Below, piece after piece: positions 7,406 through 20,857 of a stretch of DNA of 64,000 nucleotides. The position numbers were made by a program, and so were the translations under genes. The notes under the pieces were generated by a model. That model saw nothing but the letters and a program-made list of their open reading frames with translations, was not told where the DNA came from and searched no databases. Source of the DNA: a bacterium. GTDB lineage: Bacteria > UBA8248. Position 1 is the first letter of the stretch. The number at the start of each line of letters is the position of its first letter. The stretch is taken from the NCBI GenBank assembly GCA_965207065.1, contig OZ242260.1:4384001-4448000 (forward strand). Reading direction: 5' to 3'.

Positions 7406-8605
7406 ATGTCAAAGACAGGACGGGACCTGCTCGAGGCCGCGCGGGGCGATGTTCCTGAGATCACGGCGGAAGAAGTGAAGACCGCTATCGATTCGGGCGC
7501 CGAGGTGGCGCTCATCGACGTGCGCGAACCCGACGAGTTCCGGGGCGGCTACCTGCCGGGCGCCGAGCACGTGAGCCGCGGATTCCTGGAACTCAAGATC
7601 GAACAGGTCGTTCCCGATAGGACGACGCCCATCGTCGCTTACTGCGCGGGCGGCGTGCGCTCGCTGCTCGCGGGCCAGGCGCTGCAATCCATGGGCTATC
7701 AGAACGTGAAATCCATGGCCGGCGGATACGGGAAGTGGAAAGACCTGGCCTTTCCCGTGCAAGTGGACAAGCAGATGAGCGCCGAGCAGTTAAACCGCTA
7801 CAGCCGCCACTTCCTGCTCTCCCAGATCGGGGAAAAAGGCCAGTCCAAACTCCTGGACGCCAAGGTCGTCCTGATAGGCGCGGGAGGTCTGGGCTCTCCC
7901 ACCGGTCTTTACCTGACCGCCATGGGGGTGGGCAACATCGGCATCGTGGACCTGGACGTCGTGGACATGAGCAACCTGCAGCGCCAGATCGTCCACACGA
8001 ACGACCGCGTGGGAATCTCCAAGGTCGAGAGCGCGACAGCTACCCTCACCGCGCTGAACCCGGACGTGAACGTCATCGCGCACGAAGATAGAATCAACCG
8101 CGACAACGCGCTCGACATCCTCAAAGACTACGACGTCATCGTGAACGGGGCGGACAACTTCCCGACGCGCTACCTCGTGAACGACGCGGCGGTATTTCTC
8201 GGGAAACCCATCGTCGACGCCTCCATCTTCAAGTTCGAGGGCCAGGCCACCGTCTATCATCCCGGAGAGGGCGGCCCCTGCTACCGCTGCCTCTACCCCG
8301 AACCGCCGCCACCCGGCATGGTGCCCTCCTGTCAGGACGCAGGCGTGCTCGGCGCGCTTTGCGGCACCATGGGATCCATCCAGGCGACGGAGACGGCCAA
8401 ACTCATCGTTGGCTTCGGCGAACCGCTGATCGGCAAGCTGCTGATGTACGACGCGCTCAAGTCGCAGTTCAGGACGCTCAAGATCAGGCGCGACCCCGCC
8501 TGCCCGGTGTGCGGAGACAGCCCCTCCATCACCGAGCTCATCGACTATGAGTTCTTCTGCGGCCTCACGGAAGCACCCGCCGGCGGCGCCGCCAACGGTC
8601 ATTGA
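7406..8605 (+). CDS. moeB: Rhodanese + ThiF/MoeB sulfur-carrier adenylyltransferase (MoeZ-like)
   Basis: N-terminal rhodanese (IDVREPDE, YCAGGVRS), then RYSRH, GAGGLGSP, SNLQRQ, DNFPTRY, CYRC and CPVC. Confidence 0.92.
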   Translation: MSKTGRDLLEAARGDVPEITAEEVKTAIDSGAEVALIDVREPDEFRGGYLPGAEHVSRGFLELKIEQVVPDRTTPIVAYCAGGVRSLLAGQALQSMGYQNVKSMAGGYGKWKDLAFPVQVDKQMSAEQLNRYSRHFLLSQIGEKGQSKLLDAKVVLIGAGGLGSPTGLYLTAMGVGNIGIVDLDVVDMSNLQRQIVHTNDRVGISKVESATATLTALNPDVNVIAHEDRINRDNALDILKDYDVIVNGADNFPTRYLVNDAAVFLGKPIVDASIFKFEGQATVYHPGEGGPCYRCLYPEPPPPGMVPSCQDAGVLGALCGTMGSIQATETAKLIVGFGEPLIGKLLMYDALKSQFRTLKIRRDPACPVCGDSPSITELIDYEFFCGLTEAPAGGAANGH

Positions 8606-8665: not shown

Positions 8666-8697
8666 ACCCCCGGGGCGAAATGTTCCGGGGGTTTTTC
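8666..8697 (+). terminator. Rho-independent terminator after moeB
   Basis: Stem ACCCCCGGGGC/GTTCCGGGGGT followed by TTTT. Confidence 0.75.
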
Positions 8698-8728
8698 TAA
8701 GTCCTACATGAAAATCAAAAAATATTTC

Positions 8729-8757
8729 TTGCAAAACAATAATTTTTGACTTATAGT
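8729..8757 (+). promoter_or_regulatory. Sigma70-type promoter of the retron-like operon
   Basis: TTGCAA (8729-8734), 17 nt spacer, TATAGT (8752-8757); overlapped by the inverted repeat 8715-8726/8738-8749. Confidence 0.7.
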
Positions 8758-8761
8758 TAGA

Positions 8762-9200
8762 AAAGATGTGGCAGGGTGATTCGCCCTGTATGTTCTTTGA
8801 CAATCCATCTTCGGGTATGGTGTTTAGGCCTACCATCTGACGCCTCTCCAAGCGTTCGTTTTTCTGGGTGCTTGCTCTTGAAATTTAGGCAATGCCTAAA
8901 ATCCAGTGTAAAACTCCGAACACTGTGATTACCCGTTTTATGCAGCCTGAGACATATCGATGCTTCAGCCCTTTCTTGGGGAGCATCGGTTCTTTGGTCA
9001 GTAAGCATTTGAAAATGAAGTATGCATATAACGGGCGTTCGCTCTATTGATGGACATTATAGGCGGGCTAACGAATGAGGGGTCTTAAGGGAGACTCCGC
9101 CAGTTTCTAGTCGAGAACAGAGGAGGTGAACAGATGAAAATAACTTAAGCACCAATAAATTCCGCCCGCCTGATTTATCCACAGAATAGGAAAATAAAAA
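8762..9200 (+). ncRNA. Putative retron msr-msd / structured leader RNA
   Basis: No credible long ORF; dense hairpins; inverted repeats 8932-8944/9023-9035 and 9061-9068/9164-9171; directly upstream of a retron-type RT operon. Confidence 0.6.
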
Positions 9201-9201
9201 A

Positions 9202-9522
9202 ATGGATAAAAATCGAAACTCGAAGATGGGCCTTGAGAGGGCCGCAAAAGACATTATCAAAGTCGGTTACAAACTTCTTCGACAACAAAGCGACCCTCTC
9301 ATGGCGGGGACTTCAAAAGTAGTTCGTCGCCGACTCAAGCAGTTGGAACGTCAGCTACAAAATAAGCGAGTTCCACTTCCACAAAAAGAATTGGACAAAA
9401 TCGCTACAGAAGTCGCTGACACGATTAGCTGTCTTATGAAGTCCCTCATTCGTTACTTATTTTCCGCAATCCACCATTGCGAGTTATTCATAGTATGGAA
9501 ACTAAAATTGGCAACACATTAA
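9202..9522 (+). CDS. Small basic, probably helical protein; candidate retron effector
   Basis: 106-aa ORF with AGGA RBS; overlaps the HTH gene start; first gene of the RT operon; no recognisable domain. Confidence 0.6.
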   Translation: MDKNRNSKMGLERAAKDIIKVGYKLLRQQSDPLMAGTSKVVRRRLKQLERQLQNKRVPLPQKELDKIATEVADTISCLMKSLIRYLFSAIHHCELFIVWKLKLATH

Positions 9523-9800
9523 AAGTATTAAGGGTGGCTGCAGGCATAAACCAAGCGACCATGGCAAAAAGGCTAGAAATTACCCAAAATTATTTATCAC
9601 TTGTCGAAAATAACCACAAAGAACCAAGTCTCTCTTTTCTAAAAAAGTTCGCCGGCAATTTTGACATTCCCCTCGGGTATTTTTTGTGGCTCGCATTGGA
9701 TAAACAAGAAAATAACGAGGAAGAAGAGTTACGTGAAAAAATGGACTTGTTGCTAGAGCAAATATTGGTAGGCAGAAGAAAAAAAAATGCCTGGAAATAA
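9495..9800 (+). CDS. XRE/Cro-C1 helix-turn-helix protein (retron-associated)
   Basis: IGNTLKVLRVAAGINQATMAKRLEITQNYLSLVENNHKEPSLSFL; overlaps the RT start by 14 nt. Confidence 0.85.
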   Translation: METKIGNTLKVLRVAAGINQATMAKRLEITQNYLSLVENNHKEPSLSFLKKFAGNFDIPLGYFLWLALDKQENNEEEELREKMDLLLEQILVGRRKKNAWK

Positions 9801-10734
9801 AAAGGCAAAATTAAAATCATTCTGGAACATACGAACGTCGAAAGATTTGTCACGCCTGCTCGGTGTAAAAGAAGAAATCTTAAACAAGATTTCGCAATCA
9901 GCACATTTGATGTACCGATCGCGAAATGAGCCTAAGAAAACTGGAGGGACTAGGCCAATAGACAGTCCTAGTAGTCATCTAAAATGGATACAATCAAAGA
10001 TTAACAAGTGTTTATTGCAAAGAACTCGCGTCCATAAATCTGCAATGGGAGGTATCCGCGGTAAAAGATTGAAAGACAATGCGGAAAAACATGTAGGAAA
10101 AAATTTAGTTGGCAAATTCGATTTAGAAAATTACTTTACTAACATTTCTCATAAGCAAGTCTATAATCGATTTTGCTCTATGGGGTGCTCCCCAGATGTG
10201 GCTAGAATTCTCACTAAACTAACAACATATAAAGGAAGAATTCCCCAAGGAGCGCCAACAAGTACTATGCTTGCGAATTTAGTAGCTGCTTATGCAAGAG
10301 ACAATCATAGTTTCAATGCAAGGATTGATTCGCTGGCTAGAAAACGTAATGCAACCGCTACTACCTGGGTTGATGATGTCACAATCTCGGGCCCATGTTA
10401 TATCCAAAAAGAAGCCAATACTTTCGAGAAAATTGCCAGGCAAAGTGGTTTCATTCCAAACACTGATAAAAATGAATTCATAAACAGCAACCAGCAACAA
10501 TTCGTCACTGGGGCAGTTGTCAATCAAAAAGTAAGCGCCTCAAAAGACTACAGAAAAGCTATACGAGCCGAACTCCATCAACTAAAAGTCCATGGTCCAA
10601 GCAACATTTGCAAAGAACCAATCAAAAAAGTAAAGGCGAAGCTTCGGAGCAAAATTGCACATGTAGACAATCTGAACCACGAACAAGGTGAAAAACTTCT
10701 AAAAGAATTCAACGCTATCGACTGGGACTCTTAA
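9787..10734 (+). CDS. Retron-type reverse transcriptase
   Basis: PKKTGGTRPIDSP; retron region X NAEKH; FDLENYF; PQGAPTSTMLANL; catalytic WVDD; retron region Y VTG (FVTGAVVN); AT-rich. Confidence 0.9.
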   Translation: MPGNKKAKLKSFWNIRTSKDLSRLLGVKEEILNKISQSAHLMYRSRNEPKKTGGTRPIDSPSSHLKWIQSKINKCLLQRTRVHKSAMGGIRGKRLKDNAEKHVGKNLVGKFDLENYFTNISHKQVYNRFCSMGCSPDVARILTKLTTYKGRIPQGAPTSTMLANLVAAYARDNHSFNARIDSLARKRNATATTWVDDVTISGPCYIQKEANTFEKIARQSGFIPNTDKNEFINSNQQQFVTGAVVNQKVSASKDYRKAIRAELHQLKVHGPSNICKEPIKKVKAKLRSKIAHVDNLNHEQGEKLLKEFNAIDWDS

Positions 10735-10813
10735 AAGTCGCCAAACATAAGAAATATCTAAACAAAAACACTGAGAAACTTAAAAAAACTAACTCCTCCA
10801 ATCAGAAAAATCC

Positions 10814-11170
10814 CTACCCAACCTCCTCCAGCCTGGCCGCATCCATCACCGGTCTTATGGGGTATTGGCCCCGCAGGAGTTCGGCGAGAAAACCCAGGTG
10901 TTCGGCGAGGGCCGACATGTGCGCGGCGGCGTAGCGGGCGGATAGCGCACCGGCCTCTTGCGCCAGGGCTTCGCGCGCATCTGTGGCGGGAGCCTCCTGG
11001 GCGGCCAGGGCGTTAAAGGCATCAAGCAGGGCGCAGATGTCTTCATGCGCTCCCGCATATTCCGTCTTCAGCGCATAGGGGCTTCTCAGGATGAGGTGCA
11101 CGGGGTTTTGCGTGTTCGATGACTGATCGAGCATGCAGCGGCTTCGTCTCTGGTCGTAGTTTTCGGGCAT
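10814..11170 (-). CDS. Hypothetical protein
   Basis: Ala-rich ORF with host-like GC immediately downstream of the MBL hydrolase gene; start uncertain. Confidence 0.45.
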   Translation of the reverse strand: MPENYDQRRSRCMLDQSSNTQNPVHLILRSPYALKTEYAGAHEDICALLDAFNALAAQEAPATDAREALAQEAGALSARYAAAHMSALAEHLGFLAELLRGQYPIRPVMDAARLEEVG

Positions 11171-11178
11171 CGTCCTCT

Positions 11179-12093
11179 TCAACCTCCCCGCGCGTCGTGG
11201 AGCGATATCCCCTGCTCGCCACGGCCTTTGAACTCGTTGTAGAGCTTCATCACGGCCTGCTCGACGCGGTCGGGCTTCATCCACTCCGTATACCTGCCCA
11301 GAGGAATCTCGCGCGCGGCGCGCTTGGCGGGCACACCTTTTTCGAAGCGTTTTTTCGCCTCCCGGCGCACGAGCCGGAGGTAGCTTAAAGTTTTCTCGAG
11401 CGCGCGCTTATCCCCAGGCGGCCCGTGCCCCGGAACAATAGTATCGACCGAAAAAGTTTTGAGTATCTTGTCCGCGATCCGTATCCACCCGCCGATATGG
11501 GCGTCGAAGGTGGCGGGCGTAACGTAGTGAAAGCAGATATCGCCTGTGAAGAGAACACGCTCCTCAGGCAGATAGACGACTGTGTCGCCTTTAGAATGCG
11601 CGTGGCCCAGGTGGTGGAGTTCCACGACGCGCTTGCCCAGGCGAAGCGTCATACCGCCCTCGTAGGTGACGTCGGGAAAGCGTGGCTTAAGCCTTTTGAG
11701 TTCGCCTGCGTATTCGGGGTTCACGCCCCGGTAGTGCGCGAGGTCGAGCCCCGTCTCTATCATCCGCTCGCGCATGTAGCGGTGCGCGATGACGGGGATG
11801 TCCTTATCGAACCATGTAAGCCCCAGGGTGTGATCCGCATGGTGGTGGGTGCAGACGATTTTGCGCACCGGCTTTCGGGTCGCCTTTCGGATCGATTCCT
11901 GAAAAGCCTGCGTCATGGGCCGCACGTACAGAGAATCGATGACCAAGGCCTCGCTGTCCCCCACGATGAGGCCTGCGTTCGAGACGTTCAGCCCGCCCCC
12001 CTGAATGTAGGCGTAGACGCCCGGGGCCATGCGCTGAAGCCCCGTCTTCCAGCTTGCGGGTATTTTCCGGGTCTCGACCATACGTACCTCCAT
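11179..12093 (-). CDS. Metallo-beta-lactamase fold hydrolase (cyclase-like)
   Basis: THHHADH, AHSKGD, LFTGD and VPGHG motifs. Confidence 0.88.
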   Translation of the reverse strand: MEVRMVETRKIPASWKTGLQRMAPGVYAYIQGGGLNVSNAGLIVGDSEALVIDSLYVRPMTQAFQESIRKATRKPVRKIVCTHHHADHTLGLTWFDKDIPVIAHRYMRERMIETGLDLAHYRGVNPEYAGELKRLKPRFPDVTYEGGMTLRLGKRVVELHHLGHAHSKGDTVVYLPEERVLFTGDICFHYVTPATFDAHIGGWIRIADKILKTFSVDTIVPGHGPPGDKRALEKTLSYLRLVRREAKKRFEKGVPAKRAAREIPLGRYTEWMKPDRVEQAVMKLYNEFKGRGEQGISLHDARGG

Positions 12094-19319: not shown

Positions 19320-20642
19320 ATGATGGGTGGCGCAGACTCCTCTGGTGGAGACGTGCACCTGGAATCAGACTTCACGTGGCGACGGATGTTCGCCGTTTTC
19401 TGGCGCATCGGGATACTGTCCTTCGGCGGCCCGGCGGCGCAGATAGCGGTCATGCACCGAATCCTGGTCGAGGAGGAAGAGTTGCTCGACGAGGAAAGGT
19501 TCCTGGGCGCGCTCAGTTTCTGCATGCTGCTGCCCGGCCCCGAGGCCATGCAACTCGCCACCTACGCGGGGTGGCGGCTTCGCGGTGTGCCCGGCGGTTT
19601 GCTGGCGGGCCTCTTGTTCGTGGTTCCGGGCGCGTTGGTGGTGCTCGGGCTGGCGATGCTGTACATGGCCGTGGGCCACCTGCCGATAATGGCCGCGCTG
19701 TTTCTGGGGATCAAGGGCGCGGTCCTGATCATCGTGATGGAGGCTTTGCTGAGGGTGGCGAAGAGGGCGCTGCATTCAGCCGTGCACTGGATTATCGCCG
19801 GACTGGCCTTCGTGGCCATCTTCTTTCTCTCGGTCCCGTTCCCTATCCTTATCCTGATATCCGCCCTGGCCGGGTTTTTCCTGCTGGGCGGCCAGAACAC
19901 TGAAAATAGTGAACCCGGGCGGGGTGGCGGGTCGACCTCCGGCACGGTGAGAACGGTTGCCTTGTGGATGGTTGTCTGGTGGACGCCTGTGTTTGTGTTG
20001 ATGGCTGTGGGCGGATACGAGGTTCTGGTGCAGATCGGCAATTTCTTCTCCCGTCTCGCGGTGGTCACGTTCGGCGGCGCCTACGCGGTGCTCGCCTACC
20101 TGGCGCAGGACGTGGTGACCCATAAGGGCTGGATGAGCGCAGGTGAAATGATGGACGGCCTGGGGCTGGCGGAAACCACCCCGGGGCCGCTGATACTGGT
20201 CACGGAGTTCGTCGGCTATGTCGCAGGATACCGGGCGGGCGGCGTGAGCATGGGAATCGCCGGCGCGCTGGTCACGCTCTGGGTCACGTTCGCGCCCTGT
20301 TTCCTGTGGATATTCGCAGGCGCGCCCTATATCGAGCAGCTCACGGCCCAGCCTCGGCTGAAGGGCGCCCTGGAGGCGATTACAGCGGCGGTAGTGGGCG
20401 TCATTCTCAACCTCTCCATCTGGTTCAGTCTGCACGTCCTGTTCGCCGAACTGCCTTCCTTGCAAGTCGGCCCGGTGAAACTCCTGACGCCGGTATGGCA
20501 CTCCCTGGACTGGCGGGTCCTGCTCATCGGCGGCGTAAGCGCGATCATGCTTCTGTGGCGGCACCAGTCTCTCATGAGAACCCTGGGCGTTGCAGCGCTG
20601 ATGGGCGTCGGATTCGCTGCGATGGAGCACTTCTCCGGATAA
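19320..20642 (+). CDS. chrA: Chromate efflux transporter
   Basis: SFGGPAAQIA, LPGPEAMQ, TFGGAYAVL, AETTPGP; multiple TM segments. Confidence 0.92.
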   Translation: MMGGADSSGGDVHLESDFTWRRMFAVFWRIGILSFGGPAAQIAVMHRILVEEEELLDEERFLGALSFCMLLPGPEAMQLATYAGWRLRGVPGGLLAGLLFVVPGALVVLGLAMLYMAVGHLPIMAALFLGIKGAVLIIVMEALLRVAKRALHSAVHWIIAGLAFVAIFFLSVPFPILILISALAGFFLLGGQNTENSEPGRGGGSTSGTVRTVALWMVVWWTPVFVLMAVGGYEVLVQIGNFFSRLAVVTFGGAYAVLAYLAQDVVTHKGWMSAGEMMDGLGLAETTPGPLILVTEFVGYVAGYRAGGVSMGIAGALVTLWVTFAPCFLWIFAGAPYIEQLTAQPRLKGALEAITAAVVGVILNLSIWFSLHVLFAELPSLQVGPVKLLTPVWHSLDWRVLLIGGVSAIMLLWRHQSLMRTLGVAALMGVGFAAMEHFSG

Positions 20643-20857
20643 CGGAACAGGGAGATGACGCTGCCGCATGACGACCCGATAATGTGGCGCGCGTGAAGAG
20701 GCCATAGATCATCGAGAAAACAACCTCCCTATCTGGATCATGAGGCGCAAGGCGGCTATAATCGCCGCGTTCACCGATACGACAATCAAAATTTTCAGGG
20801 TGGTCGCTCGCGCCGCCTGCACTCAAACATCTTTGATGAGCCGAGGAGAAAGACCGA

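What the first reader, a model, noticed from the sequence alone, without database searches (positions are those of the whole stretch)
8700..10813. AT-rich retron-like island: structured RNA, small ORF, XRE-HTH, RT
Seen: a sharp AT-rich insert between moeB's terminator and a convergent host gene. It has its own sigma70 promoter, ~440 nt of structured non-coding sequence and three overlapping ORFs (106-aa unknown, HTH, 315-aa RT). The RT has the retron-diagnostic NAxxH (10078-10092) and VTG (10504-10512) motifs and no fused effector. Established: retrons are RT-ncRNA-effector anti-phage systems, and small protein + HTH + RT is the layout described for type VI retrons. Inference: a divergent type VI-like defence retron whose 106-aa protein is the toxic effector. 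The long leader and odd catalytic motif suggest an undescribed variant.
Basis: partly seen in the sequence, partly recalled or inferred. Interest (0 to 1): 0.86.

Follow-up and report, generated by a model that had tools for sequence, protein, structure and literature searches.

The report
Type VI retron in AT-rich island
A 2.1-kb AT-rich insert behind moeB is a complete type VI retron, a known kind of bacterial anti-phage system, from a little-studied branch with a larger small protein and an RNA that folds back onto that protein's own coding sequence.

Summary
Window 8700-10823 is a 40% GC insert in a 62% GC genome, and 7 of 8 island-free loci from the same genus show the empty site. It carries a conserved promoter, a structured leader and three coupled genes: SP 9202-9522, XRE-HTH 9495-9800 and RT 9787-10734.

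The HTH matches PADLOC HTH_VI over its full length (4.8e-25). The RT is retron-type, with NAEKH and VTG, but PADLOC's RT_VI model beats RT_III-A by only 0.8 bits.

All 13 related loci that hold enough upstream sequence share the SP-HTH-RT layout. A 14-locus alignment supports ten helices: 91% of cells are paired against 36-49% in slid controls. Three of these helices tie the leader to the SP coding sequence. This matches the "hybrid RNA" described for Retron-Vpa2 and Retron-Sen3.

The WVDD box is a clade trait, not a one-off. The SP family is rare: 28 hits among 1.84 billion representatives. SP is predicted to bind the HTH (score 0.65, best control 0.01).

Verdict: a new member of a known kind, in an uncharacterised sub-lineage. 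This scan has met type VI retrons on other DNA before. No function was tested.

The parts
8700..10823 (+). Inserted AT-rich cassette, about 2,124 bp, holding the whole retron
   Evidence: The GC profile drops across it. In 7 of 8 island-free loci from the same genus, window 8699 lies about 7 nt from window 10824. No integrase gene and no clear target-site duplication.
8729..8757 (+). Promoter: TTGCAA, 17-nt spacer, TATAGT
   Evidence: Found by the consensus scan. TATAGT is present in all 9 alignment rows that reach this position, mostly with TTGACA 17 nt upstream. L101 has the same arrangement.
8712..8752 (.). Inverted repeat across the -35 box and spacer; a possible HTH operator (inference)
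   Evidence: Repeat pairs I5 and I13. L010 and L101 have GTCAAT-N4-ATTGAC in the same spacer. Binding was not tested.
8762..9525 (+). Predicted hybrid RNA: structured leader plus the SP coding sequence
   Evidence: Fold z -8.2. Of 67 tested pairs in 10 helices, 91.1% of cells are paired against 36-49% in slid controls, and 36 pairs changed on both sides against 9-14. The transcript ends were not mapped.
8771..8789 (+). 5' stem-loop: 8-bp stem, 3-nt loop
   Evidence: 98.8% of cells paired; 3 of 8 pairs changed on both sides (GC to AU at columns 112:122). It sits 15 nt upstream of the 5' arm of helix A. [quoted passage not shown]
8805..8815 (+). Helix A, 5' arm; pairs with 9219-9229
   Evidence: 11 pairs, 9 changed on both sides, 92.4% of cells paired.
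9219..9229 (+). Helix A, 3' arm, inside SP codons 6-10
   Evidence: Same evidence as the 5' arm. The helix encloses the SP ribosome-binding site and start codon.
8932..9035 (+). Long hairpin with a variable interior; candidate reverse-transcription template (msd) (inference)
   Evidence: Inverted repeat I8 is 13 nt and 92% complementary. It is the least conserved stretch of the alignment and varies in length from 118 to 238 nt. By my reading of the folds, a closing stem forms in 12 of 14. No cDNA data.
9069..9080 (+). Helix B, 5' arm; pairs with 9444-9455
   Evidence: A 13-nt perfect inverted repeat 361 nt apart. 12 pairs, 95.8% of cells paired. Column 595:1049 reads CG in 6 rows, UA in 4 and GC in 2.
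9444..9455 (+). Helix B, 3' arm, in the SP codons for S-L-I-R-Y
   Evidence: The third base of the Leu codon covaries with the leader. In L101 the protein motif is FLVSY and a shifted 12-bp pairing is kept.
9079..9098 (+). Local hairpin P, which overlaps the arms of helices B and C
   Evidence: Predicted in the minimum-energy fold. Column 602:615 reads UA in 9 rows and CG in 4. It shares 4 nt with helix C, so the two may be alternative folds (inference).
9094..9101 (+). Helix C, 5' arm; pairs with 9303-9310 in SP codons 34-37
   Evidence: 8 pairs, 91.9% of cells paired, but only 1 pair changed on both sides. Inverted repeat I20.
9121..9130 (+). Invariant Shine-Dalgarno-like AAGGAGGTGA block in the leader ('SD1')
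   Evidence: AGGAGGTGA is identical in 14 of 14 loci. It is repeated as the SP ribosome-binding site in most loci. In minimum-energy folds it pairs with a 5' CACCUCC-like block in 9 of 12. There is no covariation, because one strand never varies.
9202..9522 (+). SP, the 106-aa small protein and presumed toxic effector
   Evidence: No Pfam, PADLOC or NCBIfam hit. Homologous ORFs stand at the same position in 13 of 13 related loci with upstream sequence, and in L101. AlphaFold2 predicts three helices with pLDDT 81. Toxicity was not tested.
9495..9800 (+). XRE/Cro-type HTH protein, 101 aa from ATG 9495
   Evidence: Pfam HTH_3 4.8e-11. PADLOC HTH_VI 4.8e-25. 30 invariant columns across 14 loci. 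It overlaps SP by 28 nt and RT by 14 nt.
9787..10734 (+). Retron-type reverse transcriptase, 315 aa
   Evidence: Pfam RVT_1 1e-14. 48 PADLOC models matched (the 25 shown are retron RT models); best are RT_VI at 224.8 bits and RT_III-A at 224.0. NCBIfam retron St85 scores 155.8, below its cut-off of 235.
10078..10092 (+). NAEKH, the retron NAxxH motif
   Evidence: Seen in the sequence. H102 is invariant and N98 is at least 90% conserved in 33 homologues.
10366..10377 (+). WVDD catalytic box, with W where most RTs have Y
   Evidence: W194, D196 and D197 are invariant in 33 of 33 aligned homologues. The Yersinia phage type VI RT has YVDD, and Sen3 is reported as YVDD.
10504..10512 (+). VTG triplet of retron region Y
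   Evidence: Seen in the sequence. T241 is invariant; G is R in some relatives.

Best explanation
This is a self-contained type VI-family retron, most likely an anti-phage abortive-infection module.

One promoter drives a hybrid RNA. Its 5' part is the retron non-coding RNA, made up of a 5' stem-loop, a basal long-range helix and a long variable hairpin that is the likely template for the RT. Its 3' part is the mRNA of a small three-helix protein (SP). HTH and RT are translated from overlapping downstream frames.

By analogy with Retron-Sen3 and Retron-Vpa2, SP is the toxic effector. I propose that SP is held in check in two ways:
- The HTH protein clamps SP helices 1 and 3 with its C-terminal helix.
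- The RNA locks SP codons 6-10, 34-37 and 81-85 into helices with the leader, so translating SP and keeping the retron RNA fold exclude one another.

A phage cue acting on the RT-HTH-RNA complex or on its cDNA would then free SP and stop the infected cell.

Shown here: the parts, their conservation, the RNA pairings, and the family of the HTH. Inferred: toxicity, cDNA synthesis, the trigger and defence itself.

The confidence of 0.8 is for the identity as a type VI-family retron. The two-level restraint of SP I hold at about 0.45.
For: Insert: the GC drop and the empty sites in 7 of 8 island-free loci of the genus.

Family of the proteins:
- The HTH matches HTH_VI at 4.8e-25 over the full profile; the next family scores 1.2e-7.
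- HTHs of two relatives, and of four other HTH-linked loci, also have HTH_VI as best hit at 66-84 bits.
- The RT matches 48 PADLOC models (the 25 shown are retron RT models) and carries NAEKH and VTG.

Layout: SP-HTH-RT is found in 13 of 13 related loci that hold upstream sequence, and in L101.

RNA: 67 pairs, 91.1% of cells paired against 36-49% in slid controls. 36 pairs changed on both sides against 9-14 in slid controls. 0 of 500 shuffles reach this on four of the five measures. Helix A has 9 of 11 compensatory pairs. A Leu third-codon base in helix B covaries with the leader.

RT tree: the clade is monophyletic (99/94) and lies outside the clade labelled III-A/XIII, which has no HTH neighbour (92/95). 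An AU test does not reject grouping it with all HTH-linked RTs, including the canonical type VI RT of a Yersinia phage (p 0.188).

SP-HTH complex model: score 0.65, best of 3 controls 0.01. That mark was reached by 58 of 80 solved complexes and by 2 of 110 mismatched pairs; these counts hold only roughly because I supplied my own alignments. The runs agree in at least 85% of contacts, and the partner's pLDDT is at least 71. The interface is HTH 57-97 against SP 10-28 and 61-86. This is the same topology as the AlphaFold3 model reported for Sen3, where HTH helix 6 meets SP helices 1 and 3.

Published mechanism for the kind.
Against: - The RT is not a clear member of PADLOC's RT_VI model. The window's RT scores 224.8 for VI against 224.0 for III-A. 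Three clade relatives score best with III-A or 'other' (L010 218 against 199; L008 204 against 187; L018 263 against 209). The canonical Yersinia phage RT scores 346 against 137.
- The backbone of the RT tree is unresolved, so common descent with canonical type VI RTs is allowed but not shown.
- NCBIfam retron models match below their curated cut-offs.
- SP shows no detectable similarity to the Yersinia phage SP (hhalign probability 0.8%), and no family library names it.
- Helix C and the anti-SD:SD1 pairing have little or no covariation.
- No cDNA, toxicity or defence data exist for this clade.
- No Rfam family matches.
Confidence: 0.8

Rival explanations
1. It belongs to the same family, but control is purely of the Retron-Vpa2 kind. 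SP is not made at all until cDNA accumulates. The HTH only represses the RT and is not an antitoxin. This is a rival for the mechanism only and sits inside the same family assignment.
For: Helices A, B and C lock the SP coding sequence to the leader and covary. Most clade members have a strong SP ribosome-binding site plus a second, invariant copy of the same sequence and a complementary 5' block, which looks like a riboregulator. Vpa2 shows conserved direct repeats and msDNA-dependent translation of its SP.
Against: The predicted SP-HTH complex passes its controls and resembles the Sen3 toxin-antitoxin model. In the window, the SP ribosome-binding site is degenerate and predicted unpaired. 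The 5' block pairs with the SP ribosome-binding site in only 2 of 12 minimum-energy folds.
Confidence: 0.25
2. It is in essence an HTH-SP toxin-antitoxin addiction module that keeps the island in the genome. The RT and RNA are accessory, and the system gives no phage defence.
For: SP-HTH binding is predicted. In Sen3, the HTH-SP pair works without the RT or the ncRNA. The island has no mobility genes and is kept at one site in two species.
Against: The RT motifs NAxxH, DD and T of VTG are invariant or nearly so across 33 homologues. The RNA helices also covary. Both point to selection on reverse transcription. Both studied type VI retrons need the RT for defence.
Confidence: 0.08
3. It is a retron of another type (III-A or unclassified) that happens to sit next to an XRE gene.
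For: RT_III-A scores within 0.8 bits of RT_VI for the window. III-A or 'other' is the best model for three clade relatives.
Against: The insert holds no other ORF that could be a type III effector. The HTH is specifically HTH_VI. RTs that score 350-408 bits with III-A models form a separate clade (92/95). The HTH and SP are syntenic in every clade locus that could be checked.
Confidence: 0.04
4. It is a non-retron RT: a group II intron, a DRT/Abi-type RT or a diversity-generating element.
For: There are weak NCBIfam hits to the group II intron RT (34.9 bits) and to Drt2 (20.6 bits).
Against: Both hits are far below their cut-offs of 300 and 390. Rfam finds no intron RNA. NAxxH and VTG are present. 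All strong PADLOC hits are retron RTs.
Confidence: 0.01

Closest known systems
Retron-Sen3 (type VI, Salmonella enterica; bioRxiv 10.64898/2026.04.27.721009; read: abstract and sections 25, 27, 28, 29, 31, 33, 34)
   Same: - SP-HTH-RT order.
[quoted passage not shown]
- A long internal hairpin with a non-conserved centre.
- Long-range pairing between the ncRNA and the SP region.
- A helical SP.
- A predicted interface in which the C-terminal helix of the HTH meets SP helices 1 and 3 (here).
   Different: - SP is 79 aa there and 106 aa here (98-135 aa across the clade).
[quoted passage not shown] Here it lies inside the coding sequence, and there are three such helices.
- The ncRNA lies within about 280 nt of the SP start there. 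Here the leader is about 440 nt.
- The RT box is YVDD there and WVDD here.
- The hosts differ.
- Function has been shown there and not here.
Retron-Vpa2 (type VI, Vibrio parahaemolyticus; bioRxiv 10.1101/2025.10.22.683967; read: abstract and sections 7, 8, 9, 10, 25)
   Same: A hybrid RNA holds both the template and the SP coding sequence. Inverted repeats link the arms. There are conserved direct repeats. HTH, RT and RNA act as one unit.
   Different: - SP is 55 aa there.
- The hybrid RNA is about 470 nt there and about 760 nt here.
- The RT box is YADD there.
- The direct repeat here is the Shine-Dalgarno-like AAGGAGGTGA itself.
- I had no Vpa2 sequence to align, so RNA homology was not tested.
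Type VI retron of Yersinia phage vB_YenM_56.17 (OM046627.1, a P2-like phage; locus L098)
   Same: Small ORF, 105-aa HTH and 310-aa RT in the same order and overlapping. Its HTH is 37% identical to the window's over 63 residues. Both HTHs hit HTH_VI.
   Different: - Its RT is a clear RT_VI member (346 bits against 137), with YVDD, NARKH and ITG.
- The two RTs are only 28% identical.
- The two SPs show no detectable similarity.
- It is carried by a phage, not by a bare chromosomal insert.
Type III-A retron RTs (PADLOC RT_III-A models)
   Same: The bit scores are about equal to those for RT_VI.
   Different: True III-A RTs in my sample score 320-408 bits, have no HTH_VI neighbour and form a separate clade. 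The island holds no effector gene of type III.

Membership tests
Retron reverse transcriptases (Mestre et al. 2020, PMC7736814; passages read) | NAxxH motif between RT domains 2 and 3 | tested here: met
   NAEKH lies at 10078-10092. H is invariant in 33 homologues.
Retron reverse transcriptases (Mestre et al. 2020, PMC7736814; passages read) | VTG triplet in RT domain 7 | tested here: met
   VTG lies at 10504-10512. T is invariant; G is R in some relatives.
Retron reverse transcriptases (Mestre et al. 2020, PMC7736814; passages read) | Profile match to curated retron RT models | tested here: inconclusive
   PADLOC retron RT models score up to 224.8 bits. NCBIfam retron St85 scores 155.8, below its cut-off of 235, and Ec67 scores 148.6, below 450.
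Retron reverse transcriptases (Mestre et al. 2020, PMC7736814; passages read) | Makes msDNA from an adjacent structured RNA | not testable with these tools
   The structured RNA is present and covaries. There are no cDNA data.
Type VI retron | [quoted passage not shown] | tested here: met
   HTH_VI at 4.8e-25 over the full profile. 101-107 aa, with a 14-nt overlap with the RT.
Type VI retron | RT belongs to the type VI lineage of RT clade 3 | tested here: inconclusive
   RT_VI is the best model by 0.8 bits for the window and is not the best for 3 relatives. The clade is monophyletic, but the backbone of the tree is unresolved. The AU test does not reject one clade with the other HTH-linked RTs (p 0.188). 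No type IV or V references were in hand.
Type VI retron | A small helical accessory protein (SP) upstream of the HTH | tested here: met
   Its position is conserved, and the model has three helices. Which published SP cluster it belongs to could not be tested, because the supplements are closed. Published SP sizes are 55-79 aa, against 106 aa here.
Type VI retron | A structured ncRNA contiguous with the SP coding sequence (hybrid RNA) and paired to it at long range | tested here: met
   Helices A, B and C are supported by covariation. That it is one continuous transcript was not tested.
Type VI retron | SP is toxic, HTH neutralises it, and the RT is needed for phage defence | not testable with these tools
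   The only relevant result is a predicted SP-HTH complex: score 0.65, best control 0.01.
Type III-A retron | An associated effector gene next to the RT | tested here: not met
   The 2.1-kb insert holds only SP, HTH and RT.
Group II intron | Intron RNA domains and a maturase-type RT | tested here: not met
   TIGR04416 scores 34.9 bits against a cut-off of 300. Rfam finds no intron RNA.

The most novel reading that the evidence does not exclude
This clade may be a distinct sub-lineage of type VI retrons in which the toxin mRNA is itself a structural part of the retron RNA.

Three covarying helices tie SP codons to the leader. An invariant Shine-Dalgarno-like block, duplicated at the SP start, works with a complementary 5' block as a switch. 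Ribosome entry on SP and the RT-competent fold would then be mutually exclusive states, read out by a W-for-Y reverse transcriptase.

That would make translation status part of the sensing logic. Neither Vpa2 nor Sen3 has been described in this way.
Probability: 0.2. Interest if true: 0.6.

Novelty: new member of a known kind. Interest (0 to 1): 0.36.

Why it matters
Type VI retrons are the least understood retron type. The only two that have been studied appear to work differently: one controls the toxin at translation, the other after translation.

This locus adds a third, well-separated lineage of at least 15 loci, mostly from metagenomes. It has:
- a larger SP;
- a tryptophan in the catalytic box;
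- unusually clear covariation between the leader and the toxin's coding sequence, including a synonymous codon position that covaries with the leader.

That gives ready-made compensatory-mutation experiments to decide whether RNA structure, the HTH protein, or both restrain the toxin. It also shows that current PADLOC RT models do not decisively classify this lineage's RTs, so relatives may be missed or mis-typed in defence-system censuses.

It does not open a new class of system.

Tried and rejected
- Rfam, permissive search: only a chance microRNA match (E 6.4).
- Scan of genome contigs with the RT: one locus only.
- Phage and plasmid collections: nothing above 33% identity.
- Word-based search for SP homologues found only 5 close relatives. 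The relatives came from loci and from the profile search instead.
- ESM Atlas for SP: recognition was low and no hit was relevant.
- Foldseek of the SP model against the PDB: no match at E up to 0.001, only generic three-helix bundles.
- Branching G and a true a1/a2 pair: I could not assign them. The base after the 5' arm of helix A is G in 9 of 12 rows but T in the window.
- Anti-SD:SD1 helix: predicted in 9 of 12 folds, but one strand never varies and several rows have a C·A mismatch. It is not counted as supported.
- A mini-ORF after SD1 (MKIT*, from about 9134) occurs only in the window and in L001. Rejected as a conserved feature.
- Target-site duplication: none convincing. Only CTA stands at both junctions.
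- Public runs: short contigs from two metatranscriptome libraries lie on 8807-8949, 9856-10096 and 10361-10833. DNA carry-over cannot be excluded and contigs cannot show transcript ends, so I draw no conclusion on expression.
- How common WxDD is among other HTH-linked RTs: not usable, because one of the two scan patterns required W[IV]DD.
- Literature: a search for 'retron' with 'WVDD' found 0 papers, and the Sen3 paper does not contain the term.
- I did not build a covariance model to test RNA homology with canonical type VI loci.
- I did not try to name the host organism.
Full report
1. THE INSERT

GC content drops from about 0.62 to 0.36-0.45 between about 8600 and 10800. The upstream gene (7406-8605) has ThiF and rhodanese domains. 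It ends in a terminator hairpin at 8666-8692.

I searched the genus with the right flank of the insert and compared the flanks by blastn. In 7 of 8 island-free loci, window 8699 lies about 7 nt from window 10824. The insert is therefore 8700-10823, about 2,124 bp.

The last 10 bases of the insert replace the final two codons and the stop of the convergent gene. I found no integrase gene and no convincing target-site duplication.

The RT occurs once in its own genome. Among 61 genomes searched, 5 have an RT match. Only one other species (G011, the same place as L001) has this RT, at 84% identity and at the same site. The SP profile finds 3 of the 51 genomes held for the phylum.

2. THE GENES

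- SP (106 aa) has no Pfam, PADLOC or NCBIfam match.
- The second protein is an HTH_3 protein. It matches PADLOC HTH_VI at 4.8e-25 over 86 of 92 profile positions. The next family scores 1.2e-7. Its conserved start is ATG 9495.
- The RT matches RVT_1 and 48 PADLOC models (the 25 shown are retron RT models). RT_VI (224.8 bits) is first by only 0.8 bits over RT_III-A. NCBIfam retron models match below their cut-offs.

NAEKH, VTG and a WVDD box are present.

3. LITERATURE

A full-text search for 'type VI retron' lists 4 papers.

- Mestre et al. 2020 (passages read) defines type VI by a Cro/C1 HTH of 91-110 aa next to the RT. Small helical proteins of 75-79 aa accompany part of them.
- The Vpa2 preprint (sections 7-10 and 25 read) describes a hybrid RNA of about 470 nt that holds both the template and a translationally repressed 55-aa toxin. 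The HTH represses the RT, and msDNA derepresses translation of the toxin.
- The Sen3 preprint (sections 25, 27-29, 31, 33 and 34 read) describes a 79-aa SP that is made constitutively and neutralised by the HTH. [quoted passage not shown] A long-range repeat flanks the SP gene, and the RT lineages track SP clusters.

The layout in the window is therefore a known one.

4. RELATIVES

The RT has close relatives at 81-88% identity and a wider set at 44-56%. All 33 aligned sequences have W[VI]DD.

A metagenome scan returned 80 loci. One of its two search patterns required W[IV]DD, so it says nothing about how common that box is.

Of the loci at 43-49% RT identity, all 13 that hold enough upstream sequence have a homologous SP (98-135 aa) and HTH in the same order. 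None of the 12 more distant loci with an adjacent HTH has this SP. A further system lies in another genus of the same family (L101).

A profile of 18 SPs finds only 28 proteins among 1.84 billion representatives. Of these, 26 score at E up to 1e-10.

5. THE RNA

The leader, and the leader plus SP, fold far better than shuffled sequence (z -4.05 and -8.2).

A 14-locus alignment (A4) shows a conserved promoter and a set of helices. I tested a structure of 67 pairs in 10 helices:
- 91.1% of cells are paired, against 36-49% when partners are slid by 1-3 columns.
- 36 pairs changed on both sides, against 9-14 in the slid controls.
- 0 of 500 shuffles reach the observed value on four of the five measures (6 of 500 on the fifth).

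The caveat is that the structure was partly derived from these same sequences, which favours it over the slid versions.

The individual helices:
- Helix A (8805-8815 with 9219-9229) has 9 of 11 compensatory pairs. It encloses the SP ribosome-binding site and start codon.
- Helix B (9069-9080 with 9444-9455) is a 13-nt perfect repeat in the window. Its 3' arm is the S-L-I-R-Y codons. The third base of the Leu codon covaries with the leader (CG in 6 rows, UA in 4, GC in 2).
- In L101 the protein motif has changed to FLVSY, and a shifted 12-bp pairing is kept.
- Helix C (9094-9101 with 9303-9310) is conserved but has only one compensatory pair. It overlaps a local hairpin, P, that itself has a compensatory pair.
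- Helix A crosses helices B and C. They therefore form either a pseudoknot or alternative folds.

The least conserved stretch of the alignment is a long hairpin (8932-9035 in the window; 118-238 nt elsewhere). It is the best candidate for the reverse-transcription template. This is inference.

An invariant AAGGAGGTGA block (9121-9130) repeats the SP ribosome-binding site found in most loci. It is predicted to pair with a 5' CACCUCC-like block in 9 of 12 folds. Covariation cannot test that pairing, because one strand never varies.

6. CLASSIFYING THE RT

In a quick tree of 73 RTs, all 24 HTH-linked rows fall on one side of a split with SH-aLRT 87.

In a careful tree of 50 rows (24 near-duplicates left out, a Yersinia phage RT added):
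- this clade is monophyletic (99/94);
- the 22 RTs with no HTH neighbour, labelled III-A or XIII by PADLOC, form one group (92/95);
- the backbone among the HTH-linked lineages is unresolved.

Holding all HTH-linked RTs together costs 7.8 log-likelihood units, and the AU test does not reject it (p 0.188).

PADLOC labels show the same picture. True members score 240-540 bits with their own model. The RT of Yersinia phage vB_YenM_56.17 scores 346 for VI against 137 for the next model. This clade's RTs score about 190-260 bits with several models and have no clear best.

Membership of the type VI RT lineage is therefore allowed but not shown. By contrast, the HTH is a clear HTH_VI member.

7. THE PROTEINS

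AlphaFold2 gives SP three helices (3-27, 32-53, 61-105) with pLDDT 81.3 and pTM 0.64. There is no significant PDB match.

The SP-HTH complex model supports binding:
- The score is 0.65, and the best of 3 controls is 0.01.
- That mark was reached by 58 of 80 solved complexes and by 2 of 110 mismatched pairs. The counts hold only roughly here, because I supplied my own alignments.
- The runs agree in at least 85% of contacts, and the partner's pLDDT is at least 71.

The interface (HTH 57-97 with SP 10-28 and 61-86) has the same topology as the AlphaFold3 model reported for Sen3. The two SPs have no detectable sequence similarity to each other's relatives as far as I could test.

8. VERDICT

The system is a type VI-family retron from a separate, uncharacterised sub-lineage. 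All functional statements (toxicity, cDNA synthesis, trigger, defence) are inferences from two preprints on other lineages.

This scan has already met type VI retrons on other DNA several times. I therefore file it as a new member of a known kind, of moderate interest. Its main value is the unusually clear evidence that the toxin's coding sequence is built into the retron RNA.

Noticed in passing
window 10814-10823 and 8692-8699: In island-free relatives, the stop codon of the convergent gene sits inside the T-tract of the moeB terminator (…TTTTTCTA). In the window and in L001, the right end of the insert supplies new final codons and a new stop, so the protein ends …EEVG instead of …EEIS.
   Followed up: partly
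window 8712-8752; L010 and L101 promoter spacers: An inverted repeat lies between the -35 and -10 boxes (GTCAAT-N4-ATTGAC in L010 and L101; a 15-nt imperfect repeat in the window). It could be an operator for the HTH protein.
   Followed up: no
window 9122-9148: The invariant AGGAGGTGA block is followed 5 nt later by a 4-codon ORF: ATG AAA ATA ACT TAA in the window and MKKI* in L001. It is absent from the more distant loci.
   Followed up: partly
G001 (L004), G006 (L005), G017 (L006/L007): Three other species of the genus carry a different RT, 30-31% identical to this one, elsewhere in the genome. The G017 copy has a TAG inside the match.
   Followed up: no
window 8807: A 156-nt contig from a size-fractionated metatranscriptome library lies on 8807-8949 and carries adapter-like letters directly before 8807. 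That is two bases into the 5' arm of helix A. One contig at low depth; no conclusion drawn.
   Followed up: no
window 10814-11284 and 11179-12093, minus strand: The 156-aa ORF with no Pfam match overlaps the upstream metallo-beta-lactamase-fold gene by about 100 nt as listed. Its true start is probably further downstream.
   Followed up: no
L098 (Yersinia phage vB_YenM_56.17, record 19407-20827): A canonical type VI retron (small ORF, HTH, RT) sits between the tail-completion and baseplate genes of a P2-like phage. Its small ORF is annotated only as hypothetical.
   Followed up: partly
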